Below are positions 3,817-39,604 of a stretch of 64,000 nucleotides of DNA, piece after piece. Position numbers and translations under genes: made by a program. The stretch lies in the sequence record NC_048203.1; one strand, 5' to 3'. This DNA is from Escherichia phage vB_Eco_mar003J3. Within the stretch, counting starts at the first letter, position 1. Each line of letters begins with the position of its first letter. The notes under the pieces are model-generated. The model saw only the letters and a list, made by a program, of their open reading frames with translations, ran no database searches and was not told the origin of the DNA.

Positions 3817-4509
3817 TTATTTGTTAACGCGTACAAAGTATCCTTTATAGGCTCCCATAATAGAGTTACCTAAGAATACTAGCCACATTGCTAGGATTGC
3901 ATAAGATGCACCTGTAGATTGAGTAGTTACAAGCCAAATGTACACAGTACCAATGTTAATAGCAATCCAGATCAGCCACTGCTCGGCATACTGCTTAACC
4001 ATAAGCCACATAGCGATCACACTACCTACCGCAGTAAATGCATCCAACATTGGGAATGGATCAGCCGTAGTAGCTAAGAAACTACCATACCCTAACGTGG
4101 CTACTGCTAGAATCCCTAGAGTCAGCAGAGCTTGGACTTTAGTCAGAATCTTAGTTGGAACATCTGGCAGATTACTTGGCTTATTTTTATGCCATAAGTA
4201 CATTCCATAAAACTGCATAGGAACGTAGTATAGCAGGTTTAGTGCAGCGTTACCATAAAGATCTGCGTTTAAAGCTGTAATACCATAGGTAAGAACACCA
4301 ACTAAGCCCCAAATATAGTTAGAAACACGTCCTTTAGCAACCAAAATAACACAAACTACGTTGGTTATCGCAGTAGCCCAATCTAGAGGTGTACCATTAT
4401 AGTTAGCTAAACTAATGAAGGCAACCGCTATGAACAGCCACAGATATTCCAGAGGTTTCCAGTTTTTAAAGTCATTTACGAGATAGTTAGTCATATTAAA
4501 ACTCTCCAA
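3817..4509 (-). CDS. pnuC: PnuC-family nicotinamide riboside / NMN transporter
   Basis: 230 aa polytopic membrane protein; matches recalled E. coli PnuC in the YGxYxW and PFPxLD...WLxWIxINI regions; 14-nt overlap with upstream nadR-like gene. Confidence 0.85.
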   Translation of the reverse strand: MESFNMTNYLVNDFKNWKPLEYLWLFIAVAFISLANYNGTPLDWATAITNVVCVILVAKGRVSNYIWGLVGVLTYGITALNADLYGNAALNLLYYVPMQFYGMYLWHKNKPSNLPDVPTKILTKVQALLTLGILAVATLGYGSFLATTADPFPMLDAFTAVGSVIAMWLMVKQYAEQWLIWIAINIGTVYIWLVTTQSTGASYAILAMWLVFLGNSIMGAYKGYFVRVNK

Positions 4510-5551
4510 CGTTAAAGTGATGAATCAGCCAGTCTACTGCGTTTACTGCTTCGTCCATACGAACTTTGTAGTCCGGGGAGTCGATGTACACAGTACGCCC
4601 TTCAGGGAACTGATTTGGAAATTCTTTCTTCATCTGCTCGAACAGTTCAGAAGTAATTGAACGATCGGAGTTAATACGTAAACCATCATCTACCCACTTG
4701 ACAGTGGGCGCTAGAACAATTACTAAATCGTAATGTTCTTCTTTTGCAATTGCTGTAACCACAGGGTTCTTACGATGTTCATAAAGTCTGTGGTAGAACT
4801 CAGTAATAAAAGCATTTGTATCCACAAACATGATCTTATTTGCAGTACGTTCTGCCTCAAACTCTAGCTCTTTGTGTCTGAACGCAATTTTACTATAATC
4901 TTCGCTGGTAAGCAGATTTTCGTTACCAACTAGATCAACTTCACAATACGTTCGACCATATTCTTCTACCCACGAAGTGTTGTATAGCTTCGCAAGGTAT
5001 TTTGTTAAAGTAGTCTTTCCTGAGCTTTCAGTCCCAATGATTACAACCCTACGCACGTAATCTTTACGAACTACGCTAGGAAGAAACTCCCAATACTTCA
5101 TAAGATCATTACGAATCATTGTAGCTGAGATTGGAACACGAGTCCGATCAGAATCTACAATATAATGACCAAACTTCGGCAGATATTTCTTATATTCTGC
5201 ATCATAGTCTAGTTCGCTAGAGAAAATGGTGATCTCAGGCAAATGTCCGTAATTTTCATTAAGGATTCTAGCATATTCCGGCCAACCATTCGGATATTCA
5301 GGAATATCATCTTCAATAGTGTACTCTACCGAAATGTGCTCAATATCCGCGTAAGTTTGTTCTAACCAACGAAGTCGATTCTTTAACTGTAATACTTCCT
5401 GATCACGTGTGTTCTGCTTATCCAACCAACGATTATCATGACTAACTACAACAATAACTCGTTCACACATAGTTGCTGCTGTGTTTATTAGGTTAATATG
5501 ACCACGCGTTAATGGTGCGAACTTACCAATTACTAGACCAGTCTTAATCAT
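4496..5551 (-). CDS. nadR: NadR-like bifunctional NMN adenylyltransferase / ribosylnicotinamide kinase, no HTH domain
   Basis: GKFAPLTRGH nucleotidyltransferase motif, then Walker A GTESSGKTT kinase domain; start moved to MIKTG (SD GAGAGGAA) because the ORF-track extension to 5602 contains the promoter. Confidence 0.85.
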   Translation of the reverse strand: MIKTGLVIGKFAPLTRGHINLINTAATMCERVIVVVSHDNRWLDKQNTRDQEVLQLKNRLRWLEQTYADIEHISVEYTIEDDIPEYPNGWPEYARILNENYGHLPEITIFSSELDYDAEYKKYLPKFGHYIVDSDRTRVPISATMIRNDLMKYWEFLPSVVRKDYVRRVVIIGTESSGKTTLTKYLAKLYNTSWVEEYGRTYCEVDLVGNENLLTSEDYSKIAFRHKELEFEAERTANKIMFVDTNAFITEFYHRLYEHRKNPVVTAIAKEEHYDLVIVLAPTVKWVDDGLRINSDRSITSELFEQMKKEFPNQFPEGRTVYIDSPDYKVRMDEAVNAVDWLIHHFNVGEF

Positions 5552-5581
5552 ATTTGATTCCTCTCTCAAATTTATAAATAT

Positions 5582-5610
5582 ATTATACAGAGAATTTAGC
5601 ATTCAAGCAA
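5582..5610 (-). promoter_or_regulatory. T5-type early promoter (TTGCTT, 17 bp, TATAAT) for nadR-pnuC
   Basis: Minus-strand reading. Confidence 0.6.
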
Positions 5611-5823: not shown

Positions 5824-6768
5824 TTACTTATTACGCATATCCATAATCATCTGGCCATCATAACCAGTACCTACAACAGTCTGAGGAACGCCACCCTGAT
5901 ATTTTTCAGCGCGTTTCATATCAACTTCCAGCTGTTTCCAGCGAATCATCTCTGGAGTGATGGTACGCTGCAGAGCGGTGTTAGCTTCAGCTTCTTTCTT
6001 AGCTGCATACAGTTTAGCATCTGCGTCACGTTCGTTAGCTACTGCCATATTTTCACGAGCAGAACGATCAGCCTCAGCTTGCTTAACTTTCTGCTGTGCT
6101 TCTTGTTCAACACGAGCTAGTTCAGCTTTTGCAGCGTTAACTTGTTCTTCACGAACTTTGGTGTTTTGTACCTGTTCCATGATTACCGGTGGCAGAGTAA
6201 TATCCTGAAGGAATACTTGCTTAACGGTGTAGCCATAAGGACGCGCATACTCTTCTACTTCTTGCTGAATAGCGGTTTGCAGTTGAGCCTGAATCTTAGC
6301 GTCGAACAGATCTTGTGCTTTTGGTACAGACTTACCAAACTCACGAATCGTAGACAGCATCTTCTCTTCAACGTACTTGTTCAGAGCTTGATCCTGAGTA
6401 CCTGCGTTAACACGGTTCATAGGAGCTTTAGCACCATCAAACTGCAACATAACTGTAATGTCAACTGTAGACTTAAACTTATCCTGGCTAGGAACCTGAA
6501 GTTTATCCAGTTTCATAGAAATATCTTTCGTACTAAAAGTATCAAAAGAGGCGAATGGGTTGACAATATGGAACCCCGGCAATACAGGATTAGGACTAAC
6601 TTTACCCAGGAAAGTCTGAGTTTTAACCGTACCATCCTGAACAACTGTATAGGAATTGAGAGCCAGAATAAGAGCGCCAAGACCAACTACAGCACCAACA
6701 CCCCAACGTTTAATAGCACGAATTACTTTTTGATCGGAAGTCAGTTCTTTAGTGTTTTTAGTAAACAT
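5824..6768 (-). CDS. SPFH/band-7 (prohibitin/HflC-like) membrane protein
   Basis: 314 aa; N-terminal TM helix, band-7-like core, long charged coiled-coil C-terminus. Confidence 0.65.
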   Translation of the reverse strand: MFTKNTKELTSDQKVIRAIKRWGVGAVVGLGALILALNSYTVVQDGTVKTQTFLGKVSPNPVLPGFHIVNPFASFDTFSTKDISMKLDKLQVPSQDKFKSTVDITVMLQFDGAKAPMNRVNAGTQDQALNKYVEEKMLSTIREFGKSVPKAQDLFDAKIQAQLQTAIQQEVEEYARPYGYTVKQVFLQDITLPPVIMEQVQNTKVREEQVNAAKAELARVEQEAQQKVKQAEADRSARENMAVANERDADAKLYAAKKEAEANTALQRTITPEMIRWKQLEVDMKRAEKYQGGVPQTVVGTGYDGQMIMDMRNK

Positions 6769-22666: not shown

Positions 22667-22730
22667 TCCTATAGTGTACTTCGCTAACAGAGGATCAACA
22701 AAAAGATCTTGTTTATCAACTTACAAATAT

Positions 22731-22759
22731 ATTATACCAATATCTACAGTAAAAAGCAA
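22731..22759 (-). promoter_or_regulatory. T5-type early promoter (TTGCTT, 17 bp, TATAAT)
   Basis: Minus-strand reading; divergent from the nrdD promoter. Confidence 0.6.
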
Positions 22760-22959
22760 CTACAATTTTAAATAAGCCTATGACATTGCAGTTAAATAAA
22801 AAATTTGCTTGCTTATAGAGGGAGATGTATGATACTAGATAATCATTTTATATCGCGTACATGGGCGCGGGATTATAGTATAAAATAGGGTAAGGTGTCA
22901 ACAACAATTTTCCAAAAATTGAGCCAGATCAAGTTACTTAGCTCTTTAGAAAATTTATA

Positions 22960-26371: not shown

Positions 26372-27211
26372 GTGAGGAATTGTACAGTGCGTAGATTAAT
26401 TATTATTAGCGGTGCAGGTTTGAGTGTTGGAAGTGGTGTACGAGCTTTTCGTACTGATACTGCTAGTGGTAAAGCACTGTGGGATGATTATGATCTAGAA
26501 GAAGTATGTAATATTCATGCCTTTCGTGGTAATTTTTATCATAAAACCCATATGTTTTACAACAAGCGTCGTGAAGAGCTAAAAACTGTTGAACCCAATC
26601 TTGCACATTTGCGTATTGGTGAATGGTATAAACAATATCCAGGTCAAGTAGTAAACTTGACTACCAATGTTGATGACCTTATTGAACGTGCTGGCGTTCC
26701 ACATAGTGACATTCTGCACATTCACGGATATTTAAAAGAGGTTGTTGTAGCTGACAGCTACAATAGTAGTAATAAACGAATTATTGATGTTGGGTATAAC
26801 TCTATTGACCCAGATGATTATAAATGGGTTAAACCTAATGTAATCTTCTTTGGTGAGCATGCTCCAGCATATACAGAAATGTACAATGTTTTTGATGGTA
26901 TTACCAGTCAAGATATGATCATTGTGGTTGGTTGCTCTAACCAAGTAATTAACTTCTACTGGGAATTATTTCCTGTTCTTAATTTGACTGCTGCCAAATT
27001 AATGGTAGTTAACTACTATGATAGTGCCCTGGCGACAGAGCCAGGCTATCAAGGTATGACTCGTAGTGAGATGTACCAGCTGGAAGAACGCGGTATCCCT
27101 TACTGGAGTAAAGGGGCTGTAGATGCCTTCAGTGACCCTGATTTTATTGCTCGTGTAGAAGCTCATCTAGAGGGTAGACCTTATATGCCGGGGAAACAAA
27201 TATGTCCATAA
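26372..27211 (+). CDS. Sir2-family NAD+-dependent deacylase / NAD-utilising enzyme
   Basis: 279 aa; ISGAGLSVGSGVRAFR (GAGIS...GIPxFR-like), TTNVDDL (TQNIDxL-like), HG dyad. Confidence 0.7.
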   Translation: MRNCTVRRLIIISGAGLSVGSGVRAFRTDTASGKALWDDYDLEEVCNIHAFRGNFYHKTHMFYNKRREELKTVEPNLAHLRIGEWYKQYPGQVVNLTTNVDDLIERAGVPHSDILHIHGYLKEVVVADSYNSSNKRIIDVGYNSIDPDDYKWVKPNVIFFGEHAPAYTEMYNVFDGITSQDMIIVVGCSNQVINFYWELFPVLNLTAAKLMVVNYYDSALATEPGYQGMTRSEMYQLEERGIPYWSKGAVDAFSDPDFIARVEAHLEGRPYMPGKQICP

Positions 27212-27384
27212 TTAAATCTGTGTATACACACCCTGATGATATATTTGTATGGGCGGATGGTAGTTGGTGCTACCGATGTGAGCTATGGGAAATGGACTAT
27301 AAATCTGATGACTATGGTGTCATATATGTTGATACGGTTGAGTATGATACGTTCTTAGAAAGGGACAAAAATGGAAATAAGTAA
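27202..27384 (+). CDS. hypothetical protein (60 aa)
   Basis: ORF only. Confidence 0.4.
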   Translation: MSIIKSVYTHPDDIFVWADGSWCYRCELWEMDYKSDDYGVIYVDTVEYDTFLERDKNGNK

Positions 27385-27877
27385 TACTCCTGTGATTTTC
27401 CTGGATATTGATGGGGTGCTCAATTCGAGCATCTCTCACCATCATGCTCCAGATAGTGAGAAGCTATTCTTTGGTGGTGATTGGGTTTACAAGCCATTAC
27501 TCCAGGCTTTTAAGAACTTTCTTAAGCCATCCCCAATAATGATTGTTTGGGTATCTTCATGGTTTTCTGTACGAAACGAGATGGAGAACGTCCAGATTAT
27601 GACCGGACTCGGTTTGATCGATCGTTTTCTTGGTACTACAGATTTTACTGGTGGCGGTTTATCTCGTGGTAATTCTGTCTTACGTTTTGTCGAAAAATAT
27701 AAGCTCAAGCATTGGTGTGTCCTAGATGATGCTGGTGCTATGATGTATCAATTTCCTACTGTTATTGTAAATGGCAGGACTGGAATAAACCTTCAAGATT
27801 TAAATGCTATCAGCTATATGCTGGAGTTTAGTCCAGATCTTGAAATGTGTAAGGCTCTTCAGAAACTTAAGGTGTAA
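27371..27877 (+). CDS. HAD-superfamily hydrolase (phosphatase/nucleotidase-like)
   Basis: 168 aa; motif I FLDIDGVL near N-terminus. Confidence 0.6.
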   Translation: MEISNTPVIFLDIDGVLNSSISHHHAPDSEKLFFGGDWVYKPLLQAFKNFLKPSPIMIVWVSSWFSVRNEMENVQIMTGLGLIDRFLGTTDFTGGGLSRGNSVLRFVEKYKLKHWCVLDDAGAMMYQFPTVIVNGRTGINLQDLNAISYMLEFSPDLEMCKALQKLKV

Positions 27878-34748: not shown

Positions 34749-35057
34749 ATGAGCGATCAGGTAAATCAAAACTATGAAGGACACGTTGACGACCAGTCCA
34801 TCATGCTTTGGGAGAAGGAGGGGGAACAAGTAAGACTAACCGTATCTGAATTTCGTGGGAATCTATACATGGGAATTCGTTACTGGCTCCAAGATATTAC
34901 TGGAGAGTGGTTTCCAACGAAATCCGGCTTCTCTTTTCCTTATACCCTAGAAACTACATCACAGCTATTCTACGCTTTTACGCAAATCCTCAGTGAATCA
35001 GAGGTCTTGCATGAAGTACAGAAACGAGCTGAAGAACTCAAAGCCAAGAATGTCTAG
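34749..35057 (+). CDS. hypothetical protein (102 aa)
   Basis: ORF followed by terminator. Confidence 0.5.
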   Translation: MSDQVNQNYEGHVDDQSIMLWEKEGEQVRLTVSEFRGNLYMGIRYWLQDITGEWFPTKSGFSFPYTLETTSQLFYAFTQILSESEVLHEVQKRAEELKAKNV

Positions 35058-35075
35058 TTCTTGGCTTTTTCTTTA
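35042..35075 (+). terminator. rho-independent terminator
   Basis: AGCCAAGAA...TTCTTGGCT then TTTTTCTTT. Confidence 0.6.
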
Positions 35076-35084
35076 TAAATGTAC

Positions 35085-35113
35085 TTGCTTTCGACTCAGT
35101 TTTCATATATAAT
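35085..35113 (+). promoter_or_regulatory. T5-type promoter (TTGCTT, 17 bp, TATAAT)
   Basis: Plus-strand reading. Confidence 0.6.
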
Positions 35114-35124
35114 ATTTATATAAA

Positions 35125-35343
35125 TTGATGAGAGGATCAATTATGGCAATGACAATAACACTTCCAAAGATTCAAGCAAAACTTAATTTGCTCTCCATAG
35201 CAAGAATCAATTACCAGGATAGTATCGGCACTCCAAACCAGAAAGCGTACAAAGATGCGTGGTTGAAAGAAGCTGCTGATTTAGCTGGTATGGCTGCGCA
35301 GTATAGTAAAGAACTCAAAATGGAAATCGCAGATGATGAATAA
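35125..35343 (+). CDS. hypothetical protein (72 aa)
   Basis: SD GAGAGGA upstream. Confidence 0.45.
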   Translation: MMRGSIMAMTITLPKIQAKLNLLSIARINYQDSIGTPNQKAYKDAWLKEAADLAGMAAQYSKELKMEIADDE

Positions 35344-36307
35344 TGTAAAAGACTTTATTAAACGTTGTCAAGAAGCGTACTACCAGGGAATGAGTCTTAT
35401 TTCCGATGAAGAATATGATCGTCTGATTAAAAGATTCCCACTAGAGGAAGAAATCGGACCGAAAGGTGATATCCCTCATTTGTATCGTATGTATTCTTTG
35501 CAGAAAGTCTATTACGATCGTGGTGATAAAGCTCCATTCAACCCACTTGGTCAGGTTGAAACTGATAAGTTAGATGGTTGTGCGATTTCTCTATTATATA
35601 TTAATGGTGAGTTTGTTCAAGCGTTAACTCGTGGTAACGGTATTCTAGGAAATGATGTAACGCATAATGTTAAAATGCTGAACATCCCCAAAACTATTTC
35701 CCAAAAAGTACCAACTCAAATCACTGGTGAAGTTCTCATTACTAAAGAAGTAGAGAACAAACGTAACTATGCTTCTGGTGCTATTAACCTGAAAGATAGT
35801 GATGATTTCATGCAACGTATTGGTGAAGGTGGTTTAATCTTCGTTGCATATGGTATCCAGTGTTCAGCGGAAACAGTCGGTATTACAGAAGCCTATTTAA
35901 AAGATATGCTTTGGCTAGAGAATGAGAACTTCTTGACAGTTGTTAATGTTCGTTCCTTTTTTAAATGGATTCCGACGGACGGTAAAGTTGTTCGTATTAA
36001 CGACAACAATAAATTCTTCCGTGAAGGTTGGACTAATAAATTTCCTCGTGGTGCATTTGCTATTAAAGAGGATGAAGAAGGCGAAATTACCACACTTGTT
36101 AAAGTTGAATGGCAAGTAGGGGCTTCTGGTAAAGTAACTCCAGTTGGTTATTTCGAGCCGGTGATTATTGATGATGCCACAATCGTTAAAGCAACTCTTA
36201 ATAACGTTGATTATATTAACGCTCTCGATTTAGAGATCGGTTGCCAGATTCGAGTGATTCGTGCTGGTGGTGTAATCCCTTGTATAGTAGAGCGAGTATA
36301 CGACTAA
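35333..36307 (+). CDS. NAD+-dependent DNA ligase, adenylation (N-terminal) subunit
   Basis: 324 aa; LISDEEYDRL Ia-like start and KxDG adenylation motif KLDG. Confidence 0.8.
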   Translation: MMNNVKDFIKRCQEAYYQGMSLISDEEYDRLIKRFPLEEEIGPKGDIPHLYRMYSLQKVYYDRGDKAPFNPLGQVETDKLDGCAISLLYINGEFVQALTRGNGILGNDVTHNVKMLNIPKTISQKVPTQITGEVLITKEVENKRNYASGAINLKDSDDFMQRIGEGGLIFVAYGIQCSAETVGITEAYLKDMLWLENENFLTVVNVRSFFKWIPTDGKVVRINDNNKFFREGWTNKFPRGAFAIKEDEEGEITTLVKVEWQVGASGKVTPVGYFEPVIIDDATIVKATLNNVDYINALDLEIGCQIRVIRAGGVIPCIVERVYD

Positions 36308-36357
36308 TTCGTAACCCTTTGCTACCCGTTTACCATGTCGGAATTATAAAGTGGTTA

Positions 36358-36386
36358 TTGACATTTTCGCCGCTTAGGTATATACT
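36358..36386 (+). promoter_or_regulatory. sigma70 promoter (TTGACA, 17 bp, TATACT) between ligase halves
   Basis: Plus-strand reading. Confidence 0.55.
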
Positions 36387-36450
36387 ATTATCATTCAGTT
36401 GAGGGATAGAAAGTTATGGCGAGGGTAAGCAAAGTTAGTTAAAATTGTAG

Positions 36451-36479
36451 TTGCTAAATGCTTAAATACTTGTTATAAT
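36451..36479 (+). promoter_or_regulatory. T5-type promoter (TTGCTA, 17 bp, TATAAT) between ligase halves
   Basis: Plus-strand reading. Confidence 0.55.
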
Positions 36480-36506
36480 ATTTATATAAATTGATAAGGA
36501 AGAAAT

Positions 36507-37289
36507 TTGATGAAAATCGAAATTCCAACACAATGTCCCTCTTGTGGTTCTAAGCTAGATCTTGTCAACGGGCAATTATTCTGTAGGAATAAGTCCAACT
36601 GTCCAGCACAATCAAGTAAGTTAATCGAGAACTTCTGCACAAAAATGAAGTTAAAGGGCTTTGGCCCGAAAACTATTGAGAAGCTGGAACTGACCAAGAT
36701 CTCAGAACTGTTTTACCTGACCGAAGAAGATTTGGTCGGAGCTGTGGGTAGCAAGGTTGCCGCTAAGTTGATTAGCGAGTTAAATACTAAGGTTCGCGGA
36801 GACATTGACTTTGGTTCGGTTCTCGGTTCTTTAGGAATTCCTCTTATTGGAGAGGTTGCAGCAAAGAAACTGTCCCAAAATTGCACTAGCTTCCACGATG
36901 TGAAGGCTGACGGCAAGGCTGGAGAAAATTACAAAACCTGGCTAAATTCCCCACAAGGCAAGGATGTTATTGAATTACCCTGGAAATTCTCAACTGGTAT
37001 TCGAGGTACTAAAGCTGATATCATCATTACGGATGATTTAGTTGCCCAGCCAAATGGAATCACGATCTGTATTACCGGATCTTTGCAAGATTTTGCAAAT
37101 CGAACGGATGCAACAAACTATTTAGAAAGTCTAGGATATACGGTTAAGAAATCCGTTACCAAAGACGTCAAATACCTAATCTGTGAGGATGAATCAAAAC
37201 GTTCTTCCTCATCTTATAAGAAAGCCGAAACGAATGGGATAGAAATCCTGTCGATTAAAGAACTATTGGAGAAAAATAATAATGTCTAA
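36507..37289 (+). CDS. NAD+-dependent DNA ligase, C-terminal subunit (Zn-finger, HhH, BRCT-like)
   Basis: 260 aa; CPSCGSKL...C..KSNCP zinc finger, then HhH-like and BRCT-like regions. Confidence 0.7.
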   Translation: MMKIEIPTQCPSCGSKLDLVNGQLFCRNKSNCPAQSSKLIENFCTKMKLKGFGPKTIEKLELTKISELFYLTEEDLVGAVGSKVAAKLISELNTKVRGDIDFGSVLGSLGIPLIGEVAAKKLSQNCTSFHDVKADGKAGENYKTWLNSPQGKDVIELPWKFSTGIRGTKADIIITDDLVAQPNGITICITGSLQDFANRTDATNYLESLGYTVKKSVTKDVKYLICEDESKRSSSSYKKAETNGIEILSIKELLEKNNNV

Positions 37290-38049
37290 ACTGAACTGGA
37301 ACGTAGAAGGTGTAACCGAGTCTCTGAAAGCAAAAGCCACTGCTCTGGGTGTTGCTGTAATCTCTCAAGAACAAGTAGCTGCTATCGCTGCTGAACTGGC
37401 TACCGAGACTGGTAAAGACGTTACCGCTCGCTCTGTTGGCTCTAAGCTGCGTAAAGAAGGTTTCGAAGTACAGAAAGCTAACGAAGTACAGAAATCCCCG
37501 TGGACTCCTGAGCAGGAAGCTGAACTAGTTGATTTCCTGAACGCTCATGCTGGTCAGTATACTTACGCTGAAATCGCTGCTGCTGTAGCTGGTGGTCAGT
37601 TCGGTACTAAGCAGGTACAGGGTAAGATCCTGAGTCTGGAAATGACTGCTTCTGTTAAGCCAACTGAAAAAGCTGCTGCTGTTCGTTCCTTCACTCCTGA
37701 CGAAGAAACTGATTTCGTTAATCAGGTTGTTGCTGGTGCTACTATTGAAGCTATCGCTGCTCACTTCGGTCGTAATATTAAGCAGATCCGTGGTAAAGCT
37801 CTGAGCCTGCTTCGTGAAGGTCGTATCGCTGCTATGCCGGTACAGGAAACATCAAGTGCTAAGACTCGTGAAGATCTGTTAGAAGGTCTGGATCTGGCTT
37901 CCATGACTGTTGCAGAAGTTGCTGAGAAAACTGGTAAGTCTGAGCGCGGTGTTAAATCTATGCTGTCTCGTCGTGGTCTGGTTGCTAAGGACTATGATGG
38001 TGCTGCTAAGCGTGCTAAACTGGATGCAAAAGCTGCGGCTGCTGAATAA
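37282..38049 (+). CDS. hypothetical protein with four internal HTH-like repeats
   Basis: 255 aa; roughly 50-aa unit repeated four times; Ala-rich. Confidence 0.45.
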   Translation: MSKLNWNVEGVTESLKAKATALGVAVISQEQVAAIAAELATETGKDVTARSVGSKLRKEGFEVQKANEVQKSPWTPEQEAELVDFLNAHAGQYTYAEIAAAVAGGQFGTKQVQGKILSLEMTASVKPTEKAAAVRSFTPDEETDFVNQVVAGATIEAIAAHFGRNIKQIRGKALSLLREGRIAAMPVQETSSAKTREDLLEGLDLASMTVAEVAEKTGKSERGVKSMLSRRGLVAKDYDGAAKRAKLDAKAAAAE

Positions 38050-38066
38050 TCTGGTAAATTAAACCT

Positions 38067-38100
38067 AAGGGGAGGGGGCTATGCTCCTTCCCCTTTTTGC
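38067..38100 (+). terminator. rho-independent terminator
   Basis: AAGGGGAGG...CCTTCCCCTT then TTTGCATTT. Confidence 0.6.
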
Positions 38101-38131
38101 ATTTAGAAGGCACGAAAGCGTGCAAAGGAGA

Positions 38132-39604
38132 ATGACCTTGTTTAACGTGCAAGCTGTAGTGTTGAAGATGCTTCTCGCTTCTGAACAGAAGCAAATAGCA
38201 TTGGAAACATTCTCAAAACTGCATAAAGATCATTTTAATGACGCTTTCTCCTCAATTTACCAAGCCGTCCAGAATTATTATAAGAAATATAACGCAATGC
38301 CGTCCATTGACGCACTGATGCTTGAGGCCAATAGGAACGCCCGCCTTTCTCAAGCTCTTGTCGTCTTAGCTAACACTCAAATTCCAGAAGTGAGCATGGA
38401 ACAGGCACTTGAAGTCCTAGAAGCTGAATATACACAGGATCTATTCCTGAAACTTCTAGAAACAGACGTGCTTCAAGATTTAACAATGCTGGATCAGGGA
38501 GAAATTCTCAATCGAGTTGCCTCCCTTCACTTAAAATTAGAAGAGAAAGTAACGAATACTGGAAAGGTATTCAACGCAGACACAATGCGTATTTTCCAGA
38601 GAGAAGAAGATACCAAACTGAACTTGATCGCTCTTGGTATTTGTAATGAGTTCGACGCTCAAATTGGTTTAGCTCGCACAGAAACGTTACTGCTTGGTGG
38701 TTGGCGTGGTACTGGTAAATCCATTATCTGTTCAAACATACAGGTTCAGCAATATTTGAATGGGGATATTGCTCCATACTTCTCAATTGAGATGAAAGAA
38801 CATGAAGTATTTAGACGTAATCTAGCCATGTTAGCTGGCGTATCAGCACTAGCAATGCGTAATAATACTCTAGAAGGTGCAGCTCTGTTGAGATTAGCCA
38901 GAACTAGAGCTAGGATGTTTAACGGCGGTGAAGAGCTTTTCGATAACTTCGTTAAACAGTACACAATGGCTAAGATGAGTGATTTCTACGATATGGAAAG
39001 TAAGCTAATAGAAGGGTATGAGCTACATACTCCTATGATTATTGTTTATGACCCTGAACTGTCCATTACAACAGTTGACGTAGAATTAAATAAATTAGTT
39101 GCTAGATATGGTGATAAAGTTACAGTAGCTTTACTGGACTATATTAACCAAACCCGACTTCCAGACTCTAAAACCATTGATATGTATGACTGGAAAGAAC
39201 AGATGGTTGTTAGCTCGTCTTTCAAATCTATCTGCCAGAAACATAACGTGGCTGGTGTAGCCCCTTACCAGATCGATCAAGATGGTAGAACACGTATGTC
39301 AAAGGGGATTCTTGATTCCGCAGACATGGCTGCTAATCTTAATGCTGCAAAAGCTGATAATGGTCAAGGTGCTATTATGTTTGACTTCGTTAAGACCCGT
39401 TCTTCTGATAGCGTGAAGTTTATGCCTAAAATGAACTGGGAAACCCTACGGATGGATAACACTACCAACCTAGCAATGGAAGATATATCTCAAATGGAAG
39501 CTGAGTTCGTTATCCCTATTGAGAAGGATAAGCCGGCTCAATCTAAACGTGCTAAGAAAGACAAAGCTGAAAATTCAACAGGTGAACAGGCCAGCGATAT
39601 ATGA
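38132..39604 (+). CDS. DnaB-like replicative helicase
   Basis: Start moved to MTLFNVQ (SD AAGGAG); Walker A GGWRGTGKS; RecA-like C-terminal domain. Confidence 0.65.
   Translation: MTLFNVQAVVLKMLLASEQKQIALETFSKLHKDHFNDAFSSIYQAVQNYYKKYNAMPSIDALMLEANRNARLSQALVVLANTQIPEVSMEQALEVLEAEYTQDLFLKLLETDVLQDLTMLDQGEILNRVASLHLKLEEKVTNTGKVFNADTMRIFQREEDTKLNLIALGICNEFDAQIGLARTETLLLGGWRGTGKSIICSNIQVQQYLNGDIAPYFSIEMKEHEVFRRNLAMLAGVSALAMRNNTLEGAALLRLARTRARMFNGGEELFDNFVKQYTMAKMSDFYDMESKLIEGYELHTPMIIVYDPELSITTVDVELNKLVARYGDKVTVALLDYINQTRLPDSKTIDMYDWKEQMVVSSSFKSICQKHNVAGVAPYQIDQDGRTRMSKGILDSADMAANLNAAKADNGQGAIMFDFVKTRSSDSVKFMPKMNWETLRMDNTTNLAMEDISQMEAEFVIPIEKDKPAQSKRAKKDKAENSTGEQASDI

What the first reader, a model, noticed from the sequence alone, without database searches (positions are those of the whole stretch)
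35333..37289. NAD+-dependent DNA ligase split into two genes by a 200-bp promoter-bearing spacer
The adenylation half (KxDG) and the Zn-finger/HhH/BRCT half are separate ORFs, with two good promoters (36358-36386 and 36451-36479) in the gap, so the C-terminal half can be transcribed independently. Together with the NAD+ salvage operon this ties replication to NAD+ availability.
Basis: partly seen in the sequence, partly recalled or inferred. Interest (0 to 1): 0.35.

Follow-up and report, generated by a model that had tools for sequence, protein, structure and literature searches.

The report
Known two-subunit phage T5 DNA ligase
The two open reading frames are the well-known two-subunit NAD+-dependent DNA ligase of T5-like phages; the gap between them holds two conserved promoters that start a separate ligB–D5 transcription unit, so the finding is real but ordinary.

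Summary
ligA (35333-36307) carries domain Ia, the KxDG adenylation domain and the OB fold. ligB (36510-37289) carries the Cys4 zinc finger, HhH and BRCT domains. They are separated by 202 bp with stops in all three frames. Sigma-70-type sites lie exactly at 36358-36386 and 36451-36479.

The window is a T5-like phage, 99.5% identical to Escherichia phage EscoHU1. The split ligase was annotated in T5 in 2005 as LigA/LigB. Its Providencia phage PR1 homologue has been solved as a heterodimer on nicked DNA (PDB 9HU3, 9I5I).

The comparison adds some context:
- The split lies at the same point in every one of more than 80 related loci, down to 38% identity.
- A promoter sits about 30-60 nt upstream of ligB in most of them.
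- ligB is always followed directly by the D5 regulator gene. In this window a strong terminator follows D5.
- Distant environmental T5-like phages have a compact fused ligase in the same gene neighbourhood. Seven of ten such genes carry promoter-like sites inside the gene.

The proposed link to NAD+ salvage genes, which lie about 30 kb away, is untested and applies to any NAD+-dependent ligase. Novelty: already known. Interest: low.

The parts
35040..35068 (+). Terminator-like hairpin followed by a T-run. It closes the upstream unit, just before the ligA promoter.
35085..35114 (+). T5-type promoter (TTGCTT-17-TATAATA, then TTTATATAAATTGA) that drives orf66-ligA.
   Evidence: It matches the T5-like consensus 13/13. 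The sequence was read. The consensus comes from PMC3326045.
35143..35343 (+). Small ORF of 66 aa with unknown function. Its end overlaps the ligA start.
   Evidence: Annotated in EscoHU1. Matches phrog_8267 with E 8e-44.
35333..36307 (+). ligA, ligase subunit A: domain Ia, nucleotidyltransferase domain (K79-L-D-G) and OB fold.
   Evidence: Pfam PF01653 and PF03120. PDB 9HU3 chain A matches with E 1e-106. The AlphaFold model has pLDDT 89.7 and TM 0.84 to 9I5I_A. Catalytic residues are invariant.
36308..36509 (.). 202-bp non-coding spacer with stops in all three frames and no terminator-like hairpin.
   Evidence: No Rfam family matches it.
36358..36386 (+). Promoter P1 (TTGACA-17-TATACT). It is conserved at about -152 to -124 from the ligB ATG.
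36451..36480 (+). Promoter P2, a canonical T5-type promoter: AAAATT upstream, TTGCTA, 17-bp spacer, TG-n-TATAATA, TAAATT downstream.
   Evidence: The consensus is from PMC3326045. The ATATT signature at the -10/discriminator junction reported for early T5 promoters is from PMC7472727.
36497..36503 (+). Shine-Dalgarno sequence AAGGAAG, 6 nt upstream of the ligB ATG.
   Evidence: Read from the sequence. Conserved in the spacer alignment.
36510..37289 (+). ligB, ligase subunit B: Cys4 zinc finger, HhH domain and BRCT domain.
   Evidence: Pfam BRCT and HhH. PDB 9HU3 chain B matches with E 9e-80, and E. coli LigA residues 402-529 with E 1e-11. The four cysteines are invariant. The start follows the EscoHU1 annotation.
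37282..38049 (+). D5 gene, a D5-like transcriptional regulator and DNA-binding protein. Its start overlaps the ligB stop (ATGTCTAA).
   Evidence: Matches phrog_323 with E 4e-70. A D5 homologue lies just downstream of ligB in every related locus (within about 150 nt; 582 nt in one).
38067..38095 (+). Strong GC-rich hairpin of 13 pairs followed by a T-run. It is the likely intrinsic terminator closing the ligB-D5 unit.

Best explanation
This is the heterodimeric NAD+-dependent DNA ligase characteristic of T5-like phages (Demerecviridae).

Subunit A contains domain Ia, the adenylation domain and the OB fold. It reacts with NAD+ through Lys79 and carries out the chemistry. Subunit B contains the zinc finger, HhH and BRCT domains. 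It supplies the DNA-binding half that, in one-chain bacterial LigA, closes the clamp around a nick. The two chains assemble on nicked DNA and seal it.

The two genes lie in two adjacent early transcription units read by host sigma-70 RNA polymerase:
- terminator (35040-35068), promoter (35085-35114), orf66, ligA;
- with no terminator in between, tandem promoters P1 and P2, ligB, D5, terminator (38067-38095).

ligB is therefore made from read-through transcripts and from its own strong promoters together with D5.

Shown here: domain content, conservation, promoter conservation, synteny, and homology to a solved heterodimer-DNA complex. Inferred: promoter activity in vivo, subunit stoichiometry, and nick-sealing by this phage's own proteins.
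For: - Identity of the window. [quoted passage not shown] The same annotation exists in T5 (AAU05253 and AAU05254; PMC3632103). [quoted passage not shown]
- Domains..
- Purifying selection on both halves. Five lineages share 52-73% identity, with invariant K-L-D-G, the Ia-type YY...SxEEYD motif, and the four cysteines.
- Solved homologue. PDB 9HU3 and 9I5I are titled 'PR1 phage heterodimeric DNA ligase in complex with 21-mer nicked DNA'. They match subunit A with E 1e-106 and subunit B with E 9e-80. The model of subunit A superimposes at TM 0.84. The source is Providencia phage vB_PreS_PR1.
- Extent of the split. It lies at the same point in all 80 IMG/VR loci and in all GenBank Demerecviridae examined. 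The 120 best LigA homologues are all 310-337 aa, apart from one partial 240-aa sequence.
- Promoters..
- ligB-D5 adjacency. It holds in every locus.
- Terminators..
Against: No transcript or protein data for this phage or for T5 at this locus were found in the searchable literature. Promoter use, read-through from ligA and the A:B ratio are therefore inferred. The HhH Pfam match is below the gathering threshold. No paper describing the PR1 structures was found in the library. Biochemical activity of the heterodimer is known to me only from the PDB entry titles.
Confidence: 0.9

Rival explanations
1. Why the gene is split, promoter-driven fission. An ancestral compact one-chain ligase already carried an internal promoter feeding the downstream D5-helicase-primase genes. 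The gene then broke at the OB/zinc-finger linker, which freed the promoter from coding constraint. ligB became the first gene of the D5 unit.
For: - Ten compact fused ligases of 555-578 aa occur in environmental contigs. They have the same neighbourhood: A2-like, PC4-like, ligase, D5-like, DnaB, primase, PolA.
- The D5 homologue of L089 is 43% identical to the window's D5.
- D5 abuts or overlaps the fused ligase stop, so there is no room for a promoter between them (same calls).
- Seven of the ten fused genes carry a site of at least 10/12 between -59 and +235 nt from the first zinc-finger cysteine. The N-terminal halves carry only two weak sites. One site is a perfect TTGACA-17-TATAAT inside the linker codons of L091, and another lies in the linker of L094. 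Three lie at +175 to +180.
- Eight of the ten fused forms branch below the split forms in a neighbour-joining tree.
Against: These are consensus matches only. The enrichment is modest, roughly p 0.02-0.07 depending on the criterion, and the region was chosen after looking. The internal sites are not at a single homologous position. The base of the tree is unresolved: split forms are strictly monophyletic in only 19 of 200 bootstraps.
Confidence: 0.35
2. Why the gene is split, mobile-element fission ('genes in pieces'). A free-standing homing endonuclease gene inserted into the ligase linker and was later lost, leaving two genes and a spacer.
For: One Tequintavirus-like genome (L032) has a 218-aa GIY-YIG endonuclease gene (Pfam PF01541, E 1.1e-5) inserted directly after ligA and upstream of P1/P2. 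This widens the gap to 794 bp. Other lineages carry one to three small extra ORFs at the same place. From my own knowledge, phage Aeh1 nrdA was split by mobE.
Against: In L032 the endonuclease gene sits in an already split locus with the promoters intact, so it is a later arrival. The deepest split lineages have the shortest gaps (55-120 bp), which contain just a promoter. No endonuclease remnant is detectable in the window's spacer.
Confidence: 0.1
3. LigB also works on its own. Because it is co-expressed with D5 from strong promoters, it would exceed LigA in amount and act as a nick-binding or BRCT scaffold. It could, for example, bind the site-specific nicks of T5-type genomes independently of ligation.
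For: ligB has two dedicated promoters in addition to read-through from ligA. ligB is always linked to D5. One PDB entry uses 'nicked DNA containing phage nick sequence'. T5-like genomes carry specific nicks (PMC10644984).
Against: There is no direct evidence. In this data set ligB never occurs without ligA immediately upstream. The heterodimer structure already explains both chains.
Confidence: 0.15
4. The two ORFs are decaying remnants of a broken ligase gene, or exons joined by splicing or frameshifting into one protein.
For: None beyond the bare fact that the gene is interrupted.
Against: Both halves are conserved down to 38-47% identity with intact catalytic and zinc-binding residues. Stops occur in all frames of the gap, and ligB is in another frame. 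No intron or other RNA family is detected. Gaps in relatives are as short as 55 bp. The homologue was solved as two chains.
Confidence: 0.02

Closest known systems
Bacteriophage T5 LigA/LigB (AAU05253 and AAU05254; T5 genome paper, Wang et al. 2005, as cited in PMC1684257 and PMC3632103)
   Same: It has the same two genes, the same split point, the same 202-bp spacer with the same two promoters, and the same D5 gene downstream. The T5 locus L020 is about 96% identical at the protein level.
   Different: There are only point differences. In P2 the window has TGTTATAAT where all 13 other distinct spacers have TGCTATAAT. The extended -10 TG is kept.
Providencia phage PR1 heterodimeric DNA ligase, PDB 9HU3 and 9I5I (released January and February 2026)
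   Same: It has the same two-chain architecture. Chain A matches ligA with E 1e-106 (53-55% identity, TM 0.84). Chain B matches ligB with E 9e-80. It is also from a T5-like phage.
   Different: It comes from a different genus and host. The window's own proteins have not been studied. No paper on these entries was available to me.
One-chain bacterial LigA (E. coli LigA on nicked DNA-adenylate, PDB 2OWO)
   Same: It has the same domain order: Ia, NTase, OB, zinc finger, HhH, BRCT. ligA residues 215-321 align to E. coli 284-390, and ligB residues 3-122 align to 402-529. Only a linker of roughly 10 residues is missing at the break.
   Different: It is a single 671-aa polypeptide. The phage enzyme is shorter (324 + 259 aa) and is made as two chains from two transcription units.
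Compact fused ligases of environmental T5-like phages (P0153, P0175, P0204, P0206, P0224, P0226, P0230, P0232, P0240, P0252)
   Same: They have the same compact size (555-578 aa, close to A plus B). They are 33-40% identical to ligB. They sit in the same neighbourhood and are followed directly by a D5 homologue.
   Different: They are one reading frame. Promoter-like sites lie inside the coding sequence rather than in a gap.
Phage 'genes in pieces' created by homing endonuclease insertion (Aeh1 nrdA/mobE; T4 gp39/gp60). Cited from my own knowledge, not checked here.
   Same: In these cases an enzyme is encoded as two polypeptides that reassemble. One relative (L032) has a GIY-YIG endonuclease gene in the gap.
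   Different: The window has no endonuclease gene in the gap. The split is ancient and stable, and it coincides with a promoter.

Membership tests
NAD+-dependent DNA ligase (LigA family) | Adenylation (nucleotidyltransferase) domain with the KxDG lysine | tested here: met
   PF01653 matches with E 1.3e-23. K79-L-D-G82 is invariant in 35 homologues.
NAD+-dependent DNA ligase (LigA family) | N-terminal domain Ia with NMN-binding residues, the hallmark of NAD+ rather than ATP use | tested here: inconclusive
   The motif AYYxG...ISDEEYD is present. Y16 and G19 are invariant; E27, Y28 and D29 are nearly invariant. The model predicts two N-terminal helices. Equating these residues with E. coli Y22, H23, D32, Y35 and D36 rests on my knowledge, not on an alignment made here.
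NAD+-dependent DNA ligase (LigA family) | OB-fold domain after the NTase domain | tested here: met
   PF03120 matches with E 9.4e-22 at residues 253-322.
NAD+-dependent DNA ligase (LigA family) | Cys4 zinc finger, HhH domain and BRCT domain | tested here: met
   C9, C12, C25 and C31 are invariant. BRCT matches with E 7.5e-9. HhH matches only weakly (E 2.5e-4, below the cutoff). Residues 3-122 align to E. coli LigA 402-529 with E 1e-11.
NAD+-dependent DNA ligase (LigA family) | All domains on a single polypeptide | tested here: not met
   There are two ORFs in different frames, 202 bp apart, with stops in all frames.
Heterodimeric (split) ligase of T5-like phages (T5 LigA/LigB; PR1, PDB 9HU3) | Break between the OB fold and the zinc finger, with both halves adjacent and co-oriented | tested here: met
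Heterodimeric (split) ligase of T5-like phages (T5 LigA/LigB; PR1, PDB 9HU3) | Full-length sequence similarity to both chains of the solved heterodimer | tested here: met
   Chain A matches with E 1.2e-106 over residues 4-324. Chain B matches with E 9.2e-80 over residues 1-255.
Heterodimeric (split) ligase of T5-like phages (T5 LigA/LigB; PR1, PDB 9HU3) | The two chains associate on nicked DNA and seal it with NAD+ | not testable with these tools
   For PR1 this is known only from the PDB entry titles. It has not been examined for this phage.
T5-type host-RNA-polymerase promoter | TTGCTw, 17-18 bp spacer, TATAATA, with AT-rich -43 (AAAAATT) and +1 (TAAATT) regions | tested here: met
   P2 matches 13/13, with AAAATT upstream and TAAATT downstream. 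About 24 such sites in the window are all co-oriented with the genes. The consensus is from PMC3326045. P1 is a plain TTGACA/TATACT site without these extras.
T5-type host-RNA-polymerase promoter | A mapped transcription start in infected cells | not tested
   No data for this promoter were found.
Genes in pieces created by a homing endonuclease | An endonuclease gene between the two halves | tested here: not met
   The window's gap contains no such ORF. Only L032 has a GIY-YIG gene there.

The most novel reading that the evidence does not exclude
The ligase gene of the T5 lineage broke apart at an internal promoter that already served the downstream D5-helicase genes. Since then LigB has been made together with D5, in excess over LigA. 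LigB may therefore act on its own as a nick-binding or BRCT scaffold, for example at the site-specific nicks of T5-type genomes.
Probability: 0.15. Interest if true: 0.45.

Novelty: already known. Interest (0 to 1): 0.15.

Why it matters
The finding has little importance as a discovery. The split T5 ligase has been annotated since 2005, and a homologue has now been solved as a heterodimer on nicked DNA.

The comparative picture assembled here is a tidy natural example of gene fission at a transcription-unit boundary. The split point is fixed across a very deep phage clade, a promoter is conserved in the gap, ligB is invariably linked to D5, and basal relatives have fused genes with promoter-like sites inside them. 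This could interest people who study operon evolution or who engineer split enzymes. It does not open a long-standing question.

Tried and rejected
- Rfam search of 35000-38300 at a permissive threshold. It found nothing in the spacer, only a chance-level Ysr251 match inside ligA (E 0.57).
- Structured 5' leader on the P1 transcript. In the window it folds well (z -3.9). No consensus structure exists across seven lineages (energy about 0), so I rejected it.
- The 8-codon mini-ORF after the GAGGGA motif downstream of P1. It is not conserved in the Klebsiella or Vibrio relatives, so I rejected it.
- Translational fusion by read-through or frameshift. Stops in all frames exclude it.
- Foreign origin of one half. 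GC content is 36-40% in ligA and 37-44% in ligB, with no step at the junction. Only D5 is higher, at 47-49%.
- Literature searches for a mapped or named T5 promoter at this site, for T5 transcriptome data, and for the paper behind 9HU3. None was found. I recall that the classical T5 promoter 'PD/E20' may be P2. This is from memory and unverified.
- Strict monophyly of the split forms. It is not supported (19 of 200 bootstraps).
Full report
**What is there**

The region holds two plus-strand ORFs. The first is 35333-36307 (324 aa). The second is 36507-37289. Its annotated start in the nearest relative is the ATG at 36510, which gives 259 aa.

Pfam places the NAD-ligase adenylation domain (E 1.3e-23) and the NAD-ligase OB fold (E 9.4e-22) on the first ORF. 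It places BRCT (E 7.5e-9) and a weak HhH match on the second. The catalytic K-L-D-G is at residues 79-82 of the first ORF. The four zinc-finger cysteines (C9, C12, C25, C31) are in the second.

The gap is 202 bp. It has several stops in each frame, and ligB is in the +1 frame relative to ligA. No terminator-like hairpin lies in the gap.

**What it is**

The window is a T5-like phage of the family Demerecviridae. The region is 99.5% identical to Escherichia phage EscoHU1, and 457 phage records match it. [quoted passage not shown]

The same pair is annotated in T5 itself as ligA (AAU05253) and ligB (AAU05254) (PMC3632103). [quoted passage not shown]

The PDB holds two entries titled 'PR1 phage heterodimeric DNA ligase in complex with 21-mer nicked DNA': 9HU3 (released 2026-01-14) and 9I5I (released 2026-02-18). 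Chain A matches ligA with E 1e-106, and chain B matches ligB with E 9e-80. An AlphaFold model of ligA (pLDDT 89.7) superimposes on chain A at TM 0.84. The source is Providencia phage vB_PreS_PR1, another T5-like phage.

Against E. coli LigA, ligA ends at about residue 390-393 and ligB begins at about residue 400. Only the short OB/zinc-finger linker is lost at the break, and no extra interface domain is added.

**How widespread the split is**

The split is at the same point in all five GenBank lineages I inspected:
- Epseptimavirus and Tequintavirus.
- Klebsiella Sugarlandvirus.
- Proteus Novosibvirus.
- Two Vibrio groups.

It is also at the same point in all 80 IMG/VR loci recovered with a LigB profile, down to 38% identity. 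The 120 best LigA homologues in the 5.8-billion-protein collection are all 310-337 aa, apart from one partial 240-aa sequence. More than 100 clusters at 50% identity are stand-alone LigB proteins of about 250 aa.

Both halves keep their catalytic and metal-binding residues. Both are therefore functional genes, not remnants.

Gap length varies between lineages:
- 55-120 bp in environmental relatives.
- 199-202 bp in the enterobacterial phages.
- 344-1374 bp where one to three small ORFs have been inserted.
- 794 bp in L032, where a GIY-YIG homing endonuclease gene sits just after ligA.

**The promoters are real features**

In 46 distinct upstream sequences, 37 have a site of at least 10/12 within 100 nt of the ligB start. 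The background density in the same loci predicts about 2%.

The tandem arrangement aligns across E. coli, Salmonella, Klebsiella, Proteus and Vibrio phages. P1 lies at about -152 to -124 and P2 at about -59 to -31. The hexamers and the extended -10 of P2 are invariant, while the first 45 nt of the spacer are free to vary.

P2 fits the published T5-like promoter consensus perfectly: TTGCTw, 17-18 bp spacer, TATAATA, AT-rich -43, and TAAATT at +1 (PMC3326045). It also has the ATATT signature at the -10/discriminator junction reported for early T5 promoters (PMC7472727). It is one of about 24 such sites in the window, all co-oriented with the local genes.

**Transcription-unit anatomy**

This anatomy is inferred from sequence. 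The ligA unit has its own perfect T5-type promoter at 35085-35114. That promoter sits just after a terminator-like hairpin (35040-35068) and ahead of a 66-aa ORF whose end overlaps the ligA start.

After ligA there is no terminator. P1 and P2 follow, then ligB. The stop of ligB overlaps the start of D5 (ATGTCTAA). After the D5 stop comes a 13-pair GC-rich hairpin with a T-run at 38067-38095.

A D5 homologue lies just downstream of ligB in every related locus, within about 150 nt in all but one (582 nt in L056), and a DnaB-like helicase follows wherever enough sequence was held. The gap promoters therefore head a conserved ligB-D5 bicistron. ligB can also be reached by read-through from the ligA promoter.

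**Origin of the split**

This part is suggestive only. The exhaustive representative search also found compact fused ligases of 555-578 aa that are 33-40% identical to ligB. I fetched the contigs for ten of them. All lie in a T5-like neighbourhood and are followed directly by a D5 homologue.

In neighbour-joining trees, eight of the ten branch below the split forms. The base of the tree is unresolved: split forms are strictly monophyletic in 19 of 200 bootstraps, while the cultured Demerecviridae are monophyletic in 191 of 200.

Seven of the ten fused genes carry a site of at least 10/12 between -59 and +235 nt from the first zinc-finger cysteine. One is a perfect TTGACA-17-TATAAT inside the linker codons of L091. 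The N-terminal halves carry only two weak sites.

This fits fission at a pre-existing internal promoter that fed D5. However, these are consensus matches, and the enrichment is modest and was defined after looking at the data.

**The NAD+ salvage claim**

The window does encode NAD+-related genes:
- A PnuC-like NMN transporter at 3817-4509 on the minus strand (E 4e-43).
- A NadR-like NMN adenylyltransferase/kinase at 4496-5602 on the minus strand.
- A Sir2-family protein at 26372-27211 on the plus strand.

The transporter and NadR genes lie about 30 kb from the ligase, on the other strand, with their own promoters. A functional connection is plausible. It would apply to any NAD+-dependent enzyme, and nothing here tests it.

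**Dead ends**

- There is no Rfam family in the spacer.
- The P1 leader hairpin is stable in the window (z -3.9) but not conserved.
- A mini-ORF after P1 is not conserved.
- There is no compositional step between the two halves.
- I found no literature on a mapped start site at this promoter, and no paper for 9HU3.

**Verdict**

The feature is the long-annotated and recently solved heterodimeric ligase of T5-like phages. Novelty: already known. Interest: low. The family-wide promoter conservation and the fused basal relatives are a modest addition.

Noticed in passing
window 38067-38134: The helicase gene start copied from relatives (ATG 38081) lies in the loop of the strong terminator hairpin after D5. 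An ATG at 38132, preceded by AAGGAG, is a more plausible start. Distant homologues also begin aligning only about 12-17 codons later.
   Followed up: partly
L032 3184-3840 (IMG/VR UViG_2974606035): A 218-aa GIY-YIG homing endonuclease gene (PF01541, E 1.1e-5) is inserted directly after ligA and upstream of P1/P2 in one T5-like genome. The ligA/ligB gap therefore also serves as a landing site for mobile genes.
   Followed up: partly
L088-L097, for example L091 1708-1736: Environmental T5-like contigs encode compact one-chain ligases (555-578 aa) in the same gene neighbourhood. Seven of the ten have strong promoter-like sites inside the gene near or after the OB/zinc-finger junction. One is a perfect consensus promoter within the linker codons.
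   Followed up: partly
window 36387-36415: The sequence just downstream of P1 (ATTATCATTCAGTTGAGGGAtAGAAA) is nearly invariant from E. coli phages to Klebsiella phages. Its Shine-Dalgarno-like TTGAGGGAAAG core recurs in the Vibrio Thalassavirus relatives. No conserved ORF or RNA structure goes with it.
   Followed up: partly
window 36471-36473: In P2 the window has TGTTATAAT, whereas all 13 other distinct spacers from relatives have TGCTATAAT. The extended -10 TG is retained.
   Followed up: no
window 3817-5602 (minus strand) and 26372-27877 (plus strand): NAD+-related genes are present: a PnuC-like NMN transporter, a NadR-like NMN adenylyltransferase/kinase, and a Sir2-family protein. The Sir2 gene is followed by a HAD domain of the 'Swiss Army Knife RNA repair' type (PF18143, E 6e-19).
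   Followed up: partly
window 5824-6768 (minus strand): An SPFH/Band 7 family protein (PF01145, E 8e-20) is encoded next to the NadR-like gene.
   Followed up: no
window 22730-22834: Two back-to-back T5-type promoters (minus strand 22759-22730, plus strand 22805-22834) mark the point where gene orientation switches. About 24 canonical T5-type promoters in the window all point with their genes.
   Followed up: no
window 37350-38100: The D5 gene has clearly higher GC content (47-49%) than the flanking ligase and helicase genes (36-44%).
   Followed up: no
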